Origin: Escherichia coli
GTDB lineage: Bacteria > Pseudomonadota > Gammaproteobacteria > Enterobacterales > Enterobacteriaceae
Direction: 5' to 3' (one strand)
NCBI RefSeq assembly: GCF_022846255.1
Contig: NZ_AP025682.1
DNA length: 64,000 nucleotides
Numbering within the stretch: position 1 is the stretch's first letter; every line of letters starts with the position of its first letter. Shown here piece by piece: positions 12,571 through 18,500 of the stretch. A program made the position numbers.

Positions 12571-15500
12571 TCAGGTGGCCAAACTTACTGTGCCACTACA
12601 GTATTGGACTTGAAGCCCGCAGAGGAAATGAGGTGTGAGTCAGCGAATTACATAGAGGCTCGCAGCTTTATGGCTGCAATAAAGCCGGATATAAAGCTGC
12701 AACCTATCCGTCAATGTCAAAACAATGGATTCCTTGCAAACGGATGCGTTCATATAAGGTCATCATGCATTCGGAAAATATTGCGGCTTACGTCGGGCTG
12801 GATGTGCATAAAGAAACGTTGGCGGTTGCTATTGCTGTACCTGAACGGCTTGGCGAAGTTCGTTATTATGGTACGATTAACAACGAAGCCTAGGCTGTAC
12901 GTCGATTATTTCAGAAATTGCAGGGACTTTACGGAAACACTCTTTCCTGCTATGAGGCTGGCCCCTGTGGTTTTGGGCTATATCATCAACTCACAGCGAT
13001 GAATATAAAATGCCAGGTTATTGCCCCTTCCCGGATACCAAAATCACCGACAGACAGAATCAAAAATGATCATCGGGACGCAATTTCTCTCGCCAGGTTA
13101 CTGCGGGCTGGAGAACTTACCCCTGTCTGGATCCCTGAGCTGACTCATGAAGCTATGCGGGATCTAATCAGAGCCCGTGCAGCAGCTAAACGAGACAGCA
13201 GAGTTGCCCGACAGCGAATTCTGAGCATGCTATTGCGAACAGACAAACTTGCCTAAGGCCTCATACTCTTCCTGGCTCTGGATGCCATCGGTGATATTTC
13301 TTAATGCACCAATCACCCTAAATAACTGCTCCTAATATCGCTACACTTTAGCCAGCCCATGTTTCCCACCGGGGAATGGGCTAACGGTATCCATAAAGTG
13401 ACGAACCTTTTTCAACAGTTGCCACATTAAACGGCACTGGTGATTTCGGGTTATTGTCTCATGAAGCGCCTGCCACAACCGTTCCACATGATTGACCCAC
13501 GGTGAGTAAACCGGCTGATAAATGACCCTGAACTTCGGGTTTGCTTTCAGCCAGCGCAACGTTTCACGGCTTTTGTGGATGATGTAGTTATCGACAATGA
13601 GCGTAATCGTTTTTGCCCGCCGGTGTGTCGCCTTCATATATTTTAACAGACTGATAAATAAGGACGAACCTTTACTGTTTCCACCAACGTAGCTGACTTT
13701 TCCCGTACCGCTGTGCAGCGCACCGGCGAGATAGTACTTTTCATTCTGGCCCGGCGTGACCACGCGCTTTTGCTGCCCACGTAGCTGCCAGTCTGCGCCA
13801 GTTTTGGGATTGAGGTGAATATCCACTTCATCTTCGTAAAACACGGGGTTTTCCGCACTGCATTTCGCCAGTGCTTCATGGATAGCGACCATTTTTTCTT
13901 CTTTGTGTGGGTCACGGATACGCAGTGTCGGCGCGGCTCTGCGCCATACCAGTCCGGCTGCAGGTAACCACCGCCGGATGGTTGAAGCATATAGTGGACA
14001 ACCGGTGACCTCACGGATTTTTATCGCCAGCAGTTCAGTACTCCAGCGGGAACGCTGATAACCGAAATCACCGGGAGAATGCTTAATAAGCTCACGCAGC
14101 AATGTGCAAATATGTTCGAACGGCCAGCGTCTCCCACGTCCTGACGGTAATGACTTCAGGCCTTCAGCACCGGACAGCGTGAACCAGTTAATCCAGCGAC
14201 CAATCGATGAGCGGGCACAGCAGAGCGTTCTGGCAACATGACAGACGGTGTCACCACGATGCAGCATCAGTATGGCGGTGAGCCGGCGGGCGTGGTTTTT
14301 GTCCTTTGTTTTATGGGTAGTTTTCTGCATCAGGCGTCGTTCGGTTCTGGGTATTGGTGCTATGATCGGCATTGCTCAGTCCGGCTGGTGATTTGGGATA
14401 TTCAGCGATTGATCAGATCGCATAAACCGGACTGAGTTCCCCCTGAGTGATCTACTATTCCGAGCAGTTATTTAGAAAGCAAACCGCCAGTAGATAAACC
14501 TGCCATTAAAGCTGTACCCTCAAGTTGATGCTGAAACGAAATAGGCATCTTGGTTGTGGTGTTTGTAACAAACTATCAGATACAAAAATATGCTCAATTT
14601 GTGACATCAGTAACAAAACGCGTTTTGTTATGTGGATTGCTTGTTTTTTGATCTGGTATAACAGGTATAAAGGTATACAGAAAAGCAAAGAAATACTGCA
14701 AAGGAAAACAGCTATAACGTAAGCTAACGTAATAACCTCTCAGTCTTTCCTCATTTGACTATGGGAGTTTTATTCAACCTGAACGGACTACGAAAATGAG
14801 CACAATGAATAAGTCAATTTTTGAAGCAGGGTTGAACTGTGCCAGTGGTGGAATATCTGGCGAACATTTTTTTTGATGGTGACCCAAAACTGAAGGTGGG
14901 TATCAGTTTTATCTTTCATAGAGTGAAATATGTTAAGAAGAAATGGAGGAAAAGATTGTACTGATTAGGTATTGATAACAATTAATAGTACTGGCGTATT
15001 TGAAGACAATATAATTATTGCTGGATATTGTTGAGGCTCCCTAATATTTACTTTAAGAGCTGTATTAGAATAACACAGGAAACAAATATGGCAACAGTAT
15101 GGTATAAACAAGTTAATCCACCACAACGGAAAGCTCTTTTTTCTGCATGGCTTGGATACGTATTTGATGGCTTTGATTTTATGATGATATTTTACATTCT
15201 TCATATTATAAAAGCAGATCTTGGCATTACGGATATTCAGGCCACTTTAATAGGGACAGTGGCCTTCATAGCCAGACCTATTGGGGGCGGTTTTTTTGGT
15301 GCCATGGCTGATAAATATGGGCGTAAGCCAATGATGATGTGGGCAATTATCATTTACTCAGTCGGAACAGGCCTTAGCGGTATTGCTACAAACTTATATA
15401 TGCTCGCAGTTTGCCGTTTTATTGTTGGCTTAGGGATGTCTGGTGAATATGCATGTGCTTCAACTTATGCGGTAGAAAGTTGGCCTAAAAATCTTCAATC

Positions 15501-18500
15501 TAAAGCTAGTGCTTTTTTGGTAAGTGGTTTTTCTGTTGGAAATATTATTGCGGCACAAATAATCCCTCAGTTTGCTGAAGTATATGGATGGAGAAACTCT
15601 TTTTTTATAGGCCTGTTACCAGTTTTACTAGTTCTTTGGATCAGAAAAAGTGCTCCAGAAAGTCAGGAGTGGATTGAAGATAAATATAAGGATAAATCAA
15701 CATTTTTGTCTGTCTTCAGAAAACCACATCTTTCAATCTCTATGATCGTTTTCCTCGTCTGTTTTTGTCTATTTGGTGCAAACTGGCCGATAAACGGACT
15801 ACTTCCTTCCTACCTAGCAGATAATGGAGTTAATACAGTGGTTATTTCAACTCTGATGACAATAGCAGGTTTAGGAACACTGACAGGTACAATATTTTTT
15901 GGTTTTGTTGGTGATAAGATTGGTGTAAAAAAAGCCTTTGTAGTCGGTCTAATAACTTCATTTATTTTCCTTTGTCCTCTTTTTTTTATTTCTGTGAAAA
16001 ACTCTTCTCTTATAGGATTATGTCTCTTTGGATTAATGTTTACAAATTTAGGTATTGCAGGGTTGGTTCCAAAATTTATATATGATTACTTTCCAACAAA
16101 ATTAAGAGGATTAGGGACCGGTCTTATTTATAACTTAGGGGCAACTGGAGGAATGGCCGCACCTGTATTAGCTACATACATTTCAGGATATTATGGCTTA
16201 GGTGTTTCATTATTCATTGTTACGGTTGCATTCTCTGCCTTATTAATTTTGTTAGTTGGTTTTGATATTCCAGGTAAAATTTATAAACTGTCCGTGGCTA
16301 AATAATTGGAGGCTTTATGATTAATTATGGCGTTGTTGGTGTTGGATACTTTGGCGCTGAATTAGCTCGTTTTATGAATATGCATGATAATGCAAAAATC
16401 ACATGTGTATACGATCCTGAAAATGGAGAAAATATTGCCCGTGAATTGCAGTGTATCAATATGTCAAGCTTGGATGCTTTAGTCTCAAGTAAATTAGTCG
16501 ATTGCGTGATCGTAGCCACCCCAAATTATCTGCATAAAGATCCAGTAATTAAAGCAGCAAAGAATAAGAAGCATGTTTTTTGTGAAAAACCAATTGCATT
16601 AAGTTATGAAGATTGTGTGGATATGGTCAAAGCGTGTAAAGAAGCTGGTGTGACCTTTATGGCTGGGCATATTATGAATTTTTTCAACGGGGTTCAATAT
16701 GCACGGAAGTTAATTAAAGAAGGTGTTATCGGCGAAATATTATCATGTCATACCAAGAGAAATGGCTGGGAAAACAAACAAGAGAGACTTTCCTGGAAAA
16801 AGATGAAAGAACAATCTGGTGGACATCTATATCATCATATACATGAGTTAGATTGTGTTCAGCATTTACTTGGAGAAATACCAGAGACGGTTACTATGAT
16901 TGGTGGAAATTTGGCCCATTCTGGTCCAGGATTTGGCAATGAAGATGATATGTTATTTATGACATTGGAATTCCCGTCAGGAAAACTAGCAACCTTAGAG
17001 TGGGGGAGTGCATTTAACTGGCCGGAACATTATGTCATCATCAATGGAACTAAAGGCTCTATTAAAATTGATATGCAAGAAACAGCAGGGTCACTTAGGA
17101 TTGGCGGTCAGACAAAGCATTTTTTGGTCCATGAAACACAAGAAGAAGATGATGATCGTCGGAAAGGCAATATGACCTCAGAAATGGATGGCGCTATAGC
17201 ATATGGTCATCCTGGAAAAAAAACACCATTATGGCTTGCCAGTTTAATAAGAAAGGAGACGTTATTCCTCCATAATATCCTCAGTGGTGCAAAACCTGAA
17301 GAAGATTATATTGACCTTCTCAATGGTGAGGCGGCCATGTCGGCGATTGCTACTGCTGATGCTGCCACTCTTTCAAGATCGCAGGACAGGAAAGTGAAAA
17401 TCAGTGAGATCATTAAACATACATCAGTAATGTAAAAACTATACGCCTCTTGATTTAATTCAGGAGGCCTTTTATGTATGATCAAGAATTTTATCTTCGA
17501 TAATCTCATAATTTTAGCAGCGCCATTTATGATAAAAAATCTCTTAAAACCAATCTAATCTTTTTCTTCCTCTGTGTATTTGTTCCCCGTATGGCGTCAT
17601 AATTTATGCATACGTAATGCGGGATAGTTACAATATGCAGCGATAGCGCTAAGTTTTAGTTAAAATCCCCCATTAGCGGGATATGGGGATCTCTGGGAGG
17701 TTCAGGTTTTAGCATCGCGACTTTAATACGACAGACGCTGGTGACGATGATGACAAGCAGTGACTCTTCCGAATAAGGTTCCCACTGACTAATTGGAGCG
17801 CGCTTCGCAATAACATCTCCTTCGCCCAGTATTGGGAAAAGTAGATACGTTCAAACAGTGTACGCTGTTTCGTCTCACAGTTCACGAGATTGATGATCGA
17901 TGAACAGGCAATATAAACCTTGCAGTGGCGATCGAGCATTACAATGAAAACCATCCGCATAGTGCGTTGGGTTATCGCTCTCCGCGAGAATATCGACGTC
18001 AGCGGGTAATGTTAACTTAAGATACAGCCCCTGTCTGGAAATAAGGGGGCAAGAACACCCGCATCGGTAACTATTATGACTCTGGCCACAGGGTTTACAG
18101 CCTCGGCAAGGGCATCTGGGAAGTTTTTTTGTATCTGCGAGTTCTGCTGTTTTTCTGACGGGACTACCCAGCTTAACAGGGGAAGCGAGCATCCATCGCA
18201 GAGCAGGCTGGCGCGGAGCACATGATGCTCCTGAGATGAATATCCACTCCAGTCAACGGCGATGACACAAAGAGATAGCTGGCTAGTCAGCATGGCAATA
18301 ATATTACTGAAAATCGGTGGGATATCGCGGTGAAGAGATTCATTACCGAGCAGTCGGTCAACGCGTTTGATTTTATTTTTGACCCGAGCCAAGCCGGGTA
18401 AATAACGCCCGATGCTGGTCAACGTCAGTGATGCGCCATTGATGAGAGCGATGGTGGCATCCAGCAAAGCATTTTGTCGGTATTTGCGAAACGGTGCTAA

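What the first reader, a model, noticed from the sequence alone, without database searches (positions are those of the whole stretch)
14655..17435. NanR-operator-controlled nanXY (yjhBC)-like module carried inside the pheU island
Three direct GGTATA hexamers (GGTATAacaGGTATAaaGGTATA), identical in pattern to the recalled nanA operator, precede a NanT-paralog MFS transporter and a Gfo/Idh/MocA oxidoreductase resembling YjhB/YjhC, which in K-12 lie in a different island. The operator is about 410 bp from the start codon, implying a long leader; a 26-codon ORF (14796-14876) lies in it.
Basis: partly seen in the sequence, partly recalled or inferred. Interest (0 to 1): 0.5.

Follow-up and report, generated by a model that had tools for sequence, protein, structure and literature searches.

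The report
Known nanXY sialic-acid operon, relocated
This is the well-characterised E. coli nanXY (yjhBC) operon for using the sugar 2,7-anhydro-sialic acid, with its known NanR repressor binding site, sitting here in a different genomic island from the one in the laboratory strain K-12, so it is an ordinary, already explained feature.

Summary
GGTATAacaGGTATAaaGGTATA lies at 14655-14677 and is unique in the window (0 of 100 shuffles match). An MFS transporter gene (15088-16305) starts 410 nt downstream, followed by a Gfo/Idh/MocA oxidoreductase gene (16317-17435). The two proteins are 99.5% identical to K-12 NanX (YjhB) and NanY (YjhC). The 23-bp operator is identical to the K-12 nanA and nanX operators. 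RefSeq already annotates this DNA as nanX/nanY in 1131 of 5426 complete E. coli genomes. NanR control of yjhBC and its role in 2,7-anhydro-Neu5Ac use are published. The long leader is not special to this window: it is 411 nt in K-12. The 26-codon ORF is not conserved as such (43 codons in K-12, 55 in strain 200177). The leader has no Rfam match and no excess predicted structure. The only difference from K-12 is location. The roughly 3.4-kb AT-rich module sits between IS elements in a pheU island here, in the leuX island in K-12, and in a pheV island in NC101/NGF-1. Verdict: already known, low interest.

The parts
14523..17903 (+). Conserved nanXY module: promoter/operator, leader, nanX, nanY, ythA remnant and part of a surface-adhesin-E-like gene. 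It is AT-rich (37% GC against 46% for the window).
   Evidence: 98.4% identical to K-12 over 14547-17903. 99.2% identical and collinear with NC101 over 14523-19585 and 99.1% with NGF-1. GC content.
14600..14615 (+). CRP-like site TGTGAcatcagTAACA, centred about 47 bp upstream of the operator start (inferred).
   Evidence: Read directly from the sequence. nanA has a comparable half-site pair (AGTGAagcagaTCGCA) at nearly the same spacing, 46 bp. It was not tested.
14655..14677 (+). NanR operator, (GGTATA)3 with 3-nt and 2-nt spacers. TATAAC at 14657-14662 inside it is the likely -10 element, which predicts a transcription start near 14670 (inferred).
   Evidence: Unique in the window, 0 of 100 shuffles. 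Identical to the MG1655 nanA operator and the K-12 nanX operator. Three NanR dimers bind this sequence (PMC8012715).
14678..15087 (+). 410-nt AT-rich (35% GC) leader between the operator and the nanX start codon.
   Evidence: Length is 410 here and in NC101, 411 in K-12 and 409 in strain 200177. No Rfam match at E<=1. Fold z-score +1.0. No sigma-70-like site on the + strand inside it.
14796..14876 (+). 26-codon upstream ORF. Its tail is set by a variable T-run (14867-14874).
   Evidence: 26 aa here and in NC101, 43 aa in K-12, 55 aa in strain 200177. The window allele of this stretch is in 51 of 1135 nanX-bearing genomes.
15088..16305 (+). [quoted passage not shown]
   Evidence: NF008963 equivalog at 785 bits, above the 637 cut-off. 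99.5% identical to K-12 NanX. Annotated nanX by PGAP.
16317..17435 (+). nanY (yjhC), NAD-dependent 2,7-anhydro-N-acetylneuraminate hydratase of the Gfo/Idh/MocA fold.
   Evidence: 99.5% identical to K-12 NanY. PDB 6O15 YjhC at E=1e-257. Pfam PF01408 plus PF02894.
17445..17468 (+). Terminator-like hairpin followed by a T-rich tail, 10 nt after the nanY stop codon.
   Evidence: This is a consensus scan only.
17478..17602 (+). ythA, frameshifted relative to the K-12 41-codon gene.
   Evidence: PGAP marks it 'frameshifted' in the near-identical loci L001, L004 and L010. Sequence comparison.
13341..14372 (-). IS630-family transposase gene. Homology of the window to other nanXY loci begins at 14523.
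   Evidence: NF033545 at 245 bits. The IS630-nanX junction is in only 1 of 5426 complete genomes. K-12 and NGF-1 share about 650 further bp to the left of this point.
3386..3461 (+). tRNA-Phe (pheU), the attachment site of the island.
   Evidence: ARAGORN. Flanked by dcuA, dsbD and yjdC/dicD.
3596..4924 (+). Island integrase.
   Evidence: NF007246 integrase domain at E=1.8e-74, 250.8 bits, below the 434-bit cut-off. Annotated as tyrosine-type recombinase/integrase in homologous loci.
47200..48738 (+). cadC, the first core gene beyond the island. It places nanXY inside the pheU-cadC insertion.
   Evidence: NF007540 equivalog at 755 bits. cadB follows at 49104-50438.

Best explanation
The region is an intact copy of the E. 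coli nanXY (yjhBC) operon, the third operon of the NanR sialoregulon. NanX imports 2,7-anhydro-Neu5Ac, and probably Neu5Ac2en. NanY converts it to Neu5Ac through an NAD-dependent oxidation/hydration/reduction cycle. The core nanATEK pathway then catabolises the Neu5Ac. Transcription most likely starts inside the (GGTATA)3 operator, with -10 TATAAC at 14657-14662 and a start near 14670, from a weak promoter helped by CRP bound at 14600-14615. Three NanR dimers bound cooperatively to the repeats occlude this promoter, and Neu5Ac releases them. The 410-nt AT-rich leader belongs to the operon in every strain. It most plausibly serves as part of the H-NS-bound region that silences this horizontally acquired module. 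Shown here: the identity of the genes and the operator, the conservation, and the genomic contexts. Taken from the literature: NanR binding, Neu5Ac induction, protein functions and H-NS binding. Inferred: the promoter elements, the transcription start and the role of the leader.
For: NanX and NanY are 99.5% identical to the K-12 proteins. NanX passes the NCBIfam equivalog cut-off. NanY matches PDB 6O15 YjhC over its full length and has the Gfo/Idh/MocA N- and C-terminal domains. The operator 23-mer is identical to the nanA and K-12 nanX operators and is absent from all shuffles. The block from about -60 to the operator end is homologous among the nanA, nanC and nanX promoters (z = 6.5 to 10.8). 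PGAP annotates nanX/nanY on this DNA in 1131 of 5426 genomes. Literature: yjhBC carries the (GGTATA)3 operator and belongs to the sialoregulon (PMC8012715; PMC3658417). yjhB and yjhC are required for growth on 2,7-anhydro-Neu5Ac and were renamed nanXY (PMC7535918). H-NS binds yjhB promoter DNA in vivo and in vitro (PMC9546599). The nanX promoter of strain NGF-1 is a low-background, Neu5Ac-inducible reporter (bioRxiv 10.1101/2024.10.23.619804). That promoter is identical to the window over 14523-14720 and differs at 5 of 568 positions over promoter plus leader.
Against: Nothing contradicts the identification. There are three open points. No transcription start was available to me, because Kalivoda 2013 and Condemine 2005 are not held. 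The strict sigma-70 scan did not call the proposed promoter because its -35 is poor. An IS630 element abuts the module 133 bp upstream of the operator, an arrangement seen in only one other complete genome, and it could alter upstream regulatory input. nanR itself is outside the window.
Confidence: 0.95

Rival explanations
1. The operator-proximal promoter is not the main nanX promoter. On this view nanX is transcribed from a start close to 15088, and the triple repeat 410 bp upstream acts only at a distance or is a relic of a duplicated nanA/nanC promoter.
For: The strict sigma-70 scan did not call a promoter at the operator. A 410-nt untranslated leader is unusually long. The promoter/operator block is clearly a duplicate of the nanA/nanC block.
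Against: The same scan found no + strand promoter-like site anywhere between 14678 and 15088. The CRP-like site, the -10-like TATAAC and the operator keep the same spacing as at nanA. yjhBC is derepressed in nanR mutants and induced by Neu5Ac (PMC3658417). The NGF-1 nanX promoter region is Neu5Ac-inducible. nanC has the same arrangement, with a 418-nt leader.
Confidence: 0.07
2. The leader carries its own regulatory device, with the upstream ORF at 14796 acting as a leader peptide. Its translation would control premature (for example Rho-dependent) termination or nanX translation.
For: A 28-nt block that includes the ORF's ATG (TTCAnnCTGAAnGGAnTAnGAAAATGAG) sits at a collinear position in the nanX and nanC leaders, about 95 and 84 nt after the operator. 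The first 24 codons are the same in all four alleles examined. Both leaders are about 410-420 nt long.
Against: The ORF is 26, 43 or 55 codons long depending on the strain, and the nanC counterpart would be only 12 codons (read from the alignment). The Shine-Dalgarno sequence is weak. The 28-nt match does not exceed the best of 300 shuffles (score 31 against a maximum of 35). There is no Rfam match and no excess predicted structure (z = +1.0). All nanX leaders are at least 95% identical, so conservation of the first 24 codons carries little information.
Confidence: 0.08
3. The copy in this island is a silent or decaying passenger, with rearrangement by the neighbouring IS elements and H-NS silencing leaving the operon effectively unexpressed.
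For: The module is bracketed by IS630 on the left and IS3/IS4 fragments on the right. ythA is frameshifted and the neighbouring surface-adhesin-E gene is truncated. The DNA is AT-rich and is a known H-NS target.
Against: Both ORFs are intact, with only two conservative-looking substitutions each relative to K-12. The promoter, CRP-like site and operator are untouched. K-12, whose copy has an IS4 about 100 bp upstream of the operator, still grows on 2,7-anhydro-Neu5Ac through these genes.
Confidence: 0.05

Closest known systems
E. coli K-12 nanXY (yjhBC, b4279-b4280) operon with its NanR operator
   Same: Same genes (99.5% amino-acid identity, 99% nucleotide identity), same 11-nt intergenic spacer, identical 23-bp operator, same leader of about 410 nt and same downstream ythA region. 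There is 98.4% identity over 3.36 kb.
   Different: The location is the pheU island here and the leuX island (KpLE2 region) in K-12. K-12 has IS4 inserted at the position equal to window 14547-14555, whereas here an IS630 element abuts at 14522/14523. ythA is frameshifted here. The upstream ORF is 26 codons here and 43 in K-12.
nanXY allele of B2 strains NC101 and NGF-1 (pheV island)
   Same: This is the closest allele. It is 99.2% identical and collinear over 14523-19585, including the right-hand IS3/IS4 fragments, the frameshifted ythA and the 26-codon upstream ORF. The NGF-1 nanX promoter has been used as a Neu5Ac biosensor.
   Different: In NC101 the module lies about 48 kb from pheV (yqgA-tRNA-Phe), next to a complete cdiBA locus. 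In the window cdiA is missing, only a cdiB-side remnant follows (19584-21025), and the island is at pheU.
nanCMS promoter/operator and leader (fimB-nanC intergenic region)
   Same: About 77 bp covering the promoter and the first two and a half GGTATA repeats are about 85% identical to window 14598-14674. The leader is of similar length (418 against 410 nt), and one collinear 28-nt block is shared.
   Different: The third repeat is degenerate (GGTGCA). The rest of the leader shows no significant similarity (z at most 1.7 beyond 140 nt). The downstream genes encode a porin, a mutarotase and an esterase.
nanATEK-yhcH operator/promoter
   Same: The 23-bp operator and the 7 bp before it (TTGATCT) are identical. 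A CRP-like site sits at nearly the same distance.
   Different: The nanA leader after the operator is only 35 nt. The genes are core genes present in nearly all E. coli, whereas nanXY is in about 15-21% of strains.
Ruminococcus gnavus NanOx and other 2,7-anhydro-Neu5Ac clusters
   Same: NanY is homologous to RgNanOx (PDB 6Z3B/6Z3C, E about 1e-158) and catalyses the same reaction (PMC7535918).
   Different: R. gnavus pairs the enzyme with an ABC (SAT2) transporter and an IT-sialidase and has no GGTATA operator. A Vibrio sinensis nanX-nanY-like pair (58% identity) also lacks GGTATA repeats.

Membership tests
E. coli sialoregulon operon nanXY (yjhBC) | First gene is the NanX/YjhB MFS transporter. 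| tested here: met
   NF008963 equivalog at 785.5 bits against a cut-off of 637. 99.5% identity to K-12 NanX.
E. coli sialoregulon operon nanXY (yjhBC) | Second gene is the NanY/YjhC Gfo/Idh/MocA oxidoreductase, immediately downstream on the same strand. | tested here: met
   99.5% identity to K-12 NanY. PDB 6O15 over the full length. Pfam PF01408 plus PF02894. The gap between the genes is 11 nt.
E. coli sialoregulon operon nanXY (yjhBC) | A (GGTATA)3 NanR operator with defined spacing lies upstream. | tested here: met
   GGTATAacaGGTATAaaGGTATA at 14655-14677, identical to the K-12 nanX and nanA operators.
E. coli sialoregulon operon nanXY (yjhBC) | NanR binds the operator and Neu5Ac induces transcription. 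| not testable with these tools
   Literature only: PMC8012715, PMC3658417, and the NGF-1 nanX promoter reporter, whose promoter/operator is identical over 14523-14720.
E. coli sialoregulon operon nanXY (yjhBC) | The operon confers growth on 2,7-anhydro-Neu5Ac. | not testable with these tools
   Shown for the K-12 genes (PMC7535918; PMC7315737). Inferred here from 99.5% identity.
NanT sialate:H+ symporter (Neu5Ac transporter proper) | Scores above the family cut-off and has the central hydrophilic insertion (14 membrane spans). | tested here: not met
   NF003024 at 380 bits against a cut-off of 604, and TIGR00891 at 262 against 553. 35% identity to NanT with a gap of about 45 residues where NanT has its central insertion. 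It is a paralogue and not NanT.
tRNA-Phe (pheU) genomic island | Inserted at pheU between yjdC and cadC, with an integrase next to the tRNA. | tested here: met
   dcuA, dsbD and yjdC/dicD, then tRNA-Phe at 3386-3461, then the integrase at 3596-4924. cadC is at 47200 and cadB at 49104.
tRNA-Phe (pheU) genomic island | A direct repeat of the tRNA 3' end marks the far boundary (attR). | tested here: not met
   No second copy of the last 23 nt of the tRNA with up to 3 mismatches in the window. The boundary may be eroded or marked by a shorter repeat.
Described cis-regulatory RNA (Rfam) in the leader | Matches an Rfam covariance model. | tested here: not met
   No match in 14400-15100 at E<=1. The only two hits in 14400-18000 are far below their gathering scores and lie downstream of nanY.

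The most novel reading that the evidence does not exclude
The two accessory sialoregulon operons, nanX and nanC, share more than the NanR operator. Both have an unusually long AT-rich leader of about 410-420 nt, with a collinear conserved block that contains the start of a short upstream ORF. This could be an undescribed post-initiation control layer, for example translation of the upstream ORF gating Rho-dependent or H-NS-dependent premature termination. From memory, a leader-peptide/Rho mechanism has been described for the topAI leader elsewhere in the same K-12 region. Such a layer would explain the low background and high fold-induction of the nanX promoter.
Probability: 0.08. Interest if true: 0.4.

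Novelty: already known. Interest (0 to 1): 0.08.

Why it matters
It matters little beyond correct annotation. The operon, its operator, its regulator and its biochemical function are all published, and this copy is nearly identical to the characterised ones. There are two modest points. First, nanXY is a portable, IS-bracketed, AT-rich cassette of about 3.4 kb. It now has documented positions in three different tRNA-linked islands (leuX, pheV, pheU), which fits its patchy presence in about 15-21% of E. coli. It travels with its own NanR/CRP-responsive promoter, so it plugs into the core nanR regulon wherever it lands. Second, the long leader shared in architecture with nanC has, as far as I could find, no assigned function.

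Tried and rejected
1. An Rfam scan of 14400-18000 at E<=1 gave nothing in the leader.
2. Folding the predicted 5' UTR (14670-15100) gave z = +1.0, so it is less stable than its shuffles and there is no case for a structured RNA.
3. The strict sigma-70/terminator scan found no + strand promoter-like site in 14400-15088, so it neither confirms the operator-proximal promoter nor offers an alternative. It did find a terminator-like hairpin after nanY.
4. I tested the idea that the whole nanX leader is a copy of the nanC leader. Only the promoter/operator block is clearly homologous. Leader similarity is marginal in the first 140 nt (z = 2.5-3.7) and absent beyond that.
5. I tested the idea that the 26-codon ORF is a conserved small protein and rejected it, because its length is 26, 43 or 55 codons in different strains. 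NCBIfam gave no hit for it.
6. Plasmid carriage: the only full-length 'plasmid' hit is a 4.9-Mb record, which is evidently a chromosome.
7. The scan of 100,044 species genomes with NanX returned only a 58%-identical Vibrio sinensis locus without GGTATA repeats, so leader conservation outside E. coli could not be assessed.
8. A search for an attR repeat of the tRNA-Phe 3' end found none.
9. No complete genome holds this exact island arrangement: no record covers at least 80% of window 3000-21000.
10. The primary papers that map the promoters (Kalivoda 2013 PMC3807447, Condemine 2005 PMC1064066, Sohanpal 2004 PMC526197) are not held. Full-text searches for a yjhB transcription start or UTR found nothing useful.

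
Full report
**Observation.** The sequence shows GGTATAacaGGTATAaaGGTATA at 14655-14677 on the + strand. The spaced triple-hexamer pattern occurs once in the 64-kb window and in none of 100 dinucleotide-preserving shuffles. Single GGTATA hexamers are unremarkable (31 found, 21 expected). An ORF starts at ATG 15088, 410 nt downstream of the last hexamer, and ends at 16305 (405 aa). After an 11-nt gap with a strong GGAGG ribosome-binding site comes a second ORF at 16317-17435 (372 aa). The 26-codon ORF at 14796-14876 exists.

**Identity of the genes.** The first protein scores 785.5 bits against the NCBIfam equivalog NF008963 (cut-off 637). It falls well below the cut-offs of the NanT-type sialate symporter models and is 35% identical to K-12 NanT, lacking NanT's central insertion. 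The second protein has the Gfo/Idh/MocA N- and C-terminal domains and matches PDB 6O15, 'oxidoreductase YjhC', over all 372 residues at E=1e-257. Direct comparison with the K-12 locus gives 99.5% amino-acid identity for both proteins, with two substitutions each, and 99% nucleotide identity. RefSeq/PGAP annotates the same DNA as nanX, nanY and ythA. A full-length match is present in 1131 of 5426 complete E. coli genomes. A population survey reports about 15% (PMC10088187), and many laboratory K-12 and B derivatives inflate the count here.

**Operator and promoter.** The 23-bp operator is identical to the one upstream of K-12 nanX (alignment A1). It is also identical to the nanA operator in the MG1655 nanR-nanA intergenic region, including the preceding TTGATCT. 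The nanC upstream region shares about 77 bp at about 85% identity with window 14598-14674, but its third repeat is degenerate. The 110 bp before the operator align significantly between nanX and nanC (z = 10.8) and between nanX and nanA (z = 6.5). The three sialoregulon promoters are therefore copies of one promoter/operator block.

Reading the sequence, a CRP-like site (TGTGA-N6-TAACA, 14600-14615) is centred 47 bp before the operator, against 46 bp at nanA. TATAAC inside the first repeat is a plausible -10 element, which would put the transcription start near 14670, inside the operator. This is an inference. The strict consensus scan did not call it because the -35 is poor, and it found no alternative + strand promoter in the leader either. 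From memory, which I could not check, the nanA CRP site is centred at -61.5, and that agrees with this geometry.

**What is already published.** yjhBC is one of three operons carrying the GGTATA-repeat operator. Three NanR dimers bind it cooperatively and Neu5Ac weakens binding (PMC8012715). yjhBC is derepressed in nanR mutants and induced by Neu5Ac (PMC3658417). YjhB and YjhC are required for growth on 2,7-anhydro-Neu5Ac and were renamed NanX and NanY (PMC7535918; see also PMC7315737). H-NS binds yjhB promoter DNA, and a yjhB mutant is defective in mouse-gut colonisation (PMC9546599). The nanX promoter of strain NGF-1 was chosen as a low-background Neu5Ac biosensor (bioRxiv 10.1101/2024.10.23.619804). 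The NGF-1 allele is identical to the window over 14523-14720 and differs at 5 of 568 positions across promoter plus leader, none of them in the operator or the CRP-like site. The regulatory claim therefore has experimental support for essentially this allele.

**The long leader and its small ORF.** The leader is not peculiar to this window. It is 410 nt here and in NC101, 411 nt in K-12 and 409 nt in strain 200177. nanC has a 418-nt leader, whereas nanA has only 35 nt. The leader is 35% GC, has no Rfam match at E<=1, and is predicted to fold less stably than its shuffles (z = +1.0).

The upstream ORF has the same first 24 codons in all alleles examined. Differences in and around the T-run at 14867-14874 give it 26, 43 or 55 codons. 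The window's version of this stretch is found in 51 of 1135 nanX-bearing genomes, and most of the rest have the K-12 version. All nanX leaders are at least 95% identical, so conservation says little about function.

One 28-nt block that includes the ORF's ATG lies at a collinear position in the nanC leader. The match does not exceed the best of 300 shuffles, and windowed alignments are marginal for the first 140 nt and null beyond. I conclude that the 26-codon ORF is not a conserved gene. The most economical role for the leader is as part of the AT-rich H-NS target. A leader-peptide device is not excluded, but it is unsupported.

**Genomic context.** The tRNA-Phe at 3386-3461 is pheU. It follows dcuA, dsbD and yjdC/dicD, an integrase gene lies next to it (3596-4924), and the core genes cadC and cadB resume at 47200. 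nanXY therefore lies about 11 kb inside an insertion of about 43 kb at pheU, downstream of an afa-8-type adhesin cluster.

In K-12 the operon lies about 7.5 kb from leuX, with IS4 inserted at the position equal to window 14547-14555. In NC101 and NGF-1 it lies about 48 kb inside a pheV island (yqgA-tRNA-Phe) next to cdiBA. The window is collinear with NC101 from 14523 to 19585 (99.2%) and then jumps to the cdiB side with cdiA missing. To the left, an IS630-family element (transposase 13341-14372) abuts at 14522/14523, where K-12 and NGF-1 continue for another 650 bp or so of shared sequence. That junction occurs in only one of 5426 complete genomes, strain 200177 from Mali, and no complete genome has the whole arrangement. 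The right-hand junction is shared by 70 genomes. The module is not found on real plasmids.

The module's 37% GC, against 53% and 48% for the two flanking core stretches (1-3380 and 47200-64000), fits horizontal origin. nanXY is thus a small IS-bracketed cassette that has been shuffled between tRNA-linked islands and carries its own NanR-responsive promoter.

**Comparison outside E. coli.** The operator-plus-leader arrangement could not be traced outside Escherichia with these tools.

**Verdict.** Observation confirmed and interpretation supported. The feature is the known nanXY operon with its known operator, so the novelty class is 'already known' and interest is low. The residual unknown is the function, if any, of the long leader shared in architecture with nanC.

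Noticed in passing
window 14867-14874 (T-run) within 14796-14876: Sequence differences in and around a run of eight T's change the reading frame of the upstream ORF between strains: 26 codons here and in NC101, 43 in K-12, 55 in strain 200177. The window version is in 51 of 1135 nanX-bearing complete genomes.
   Followed up: yes
window about 14772-14800; K-12 nanC leader (L006, minus strand, about 84-112 nt after the operator): A 28-nt block, TTCAnnCTGAAnGGAnTAnGAAAATGAG, sits at collinear positions in the nanX and nanC leaders. It includes a short palindrome and the ATG of a short ORF in both. It is only marginally above chance, and I could find no function for it.
   Followed up: partly
window 17478-17602: ythA, a 41-codon gene annotated in K-12 just after nanY, is frameshifted here, as in NC101, NGF-1 and strain 200177. 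Its start overlaps the terminator-like hairpin after nanY (17445-17468).
   Followed up: partly
window 13341-14522: An IS630-family element abuts the nanX upstream region 133 bp before the operator. This junction occurs in only one of 5426 complete E. coli genomes. K-12 instead has IS4 about 100 bp before the operator. The region just upstream of this promoter has therefore been hit by IS elements more than once.
   Followed up: partly
window 5219-11342: An afa-8-type afimbrial adhesin cluster (usher 6724-9312, chaperone 9480-10247, AfaD/AfaE-8-like genes and regulators) lies directly after the pheU integrase. It is 98-99% identical to loci in bovine and human isolates.
   Followed up: no
window 19584-21025: This stretch is 97% identical to the cdiB (ShlB/FhaC/HecB transporter) side of the NC101 cdiBA locus. 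The roughly 10-kb cdiA gene that separates it from the nanXY side in NC101 is absent, so this is a deleted contact-dependent-inhibition locus with broken ORFs on the minus strand.
   Followed up: partly
window 23965-25218 (+): An island-borne dGTP triphosphohydrolase homologue. TIGR01353 scores 321 bits, above its cut-off. The 'anti-phage dGTPase' model NF041026 scores 286 bits, below its cut-off of 400. It is a possible defence gene.
   Followed up: no
window 21972-23123 (-): A complete IS30 transposase gene. The surrounding 21965-23512 is 99.6% identical to IS30D and its flank in the K-12 leuX island, a few kb from K-12 nanXY.
   Followed up: no
window 41447-45674: A CP4-type island module (DUF932, antirestriction, JAB/RadC-like, CbeA/CbtA toxin-antitoxin region), 86-94% identical to the distal end of the NC101 pheV island.
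   Followed up: no
window 3439-3461 and the whole window: No second copy of the 3' end of tRNA-Phe (23 nt, up to 3 mismatches) is present. The pheU island therefore has no recognisable attR repeat before cadC.
   Followed up: partly
L001 8634-10555 (strain 200177, outside the window): In the one genome that shares the IS630-nanX junction, the island also carries a thymidylate synthase gene next to an 'alpha-glutamyl/putrescinyl thymine pyrophosphorylase clade 3' gene, which is normally a phage DNA-hypermodification function.
   Followed up: no
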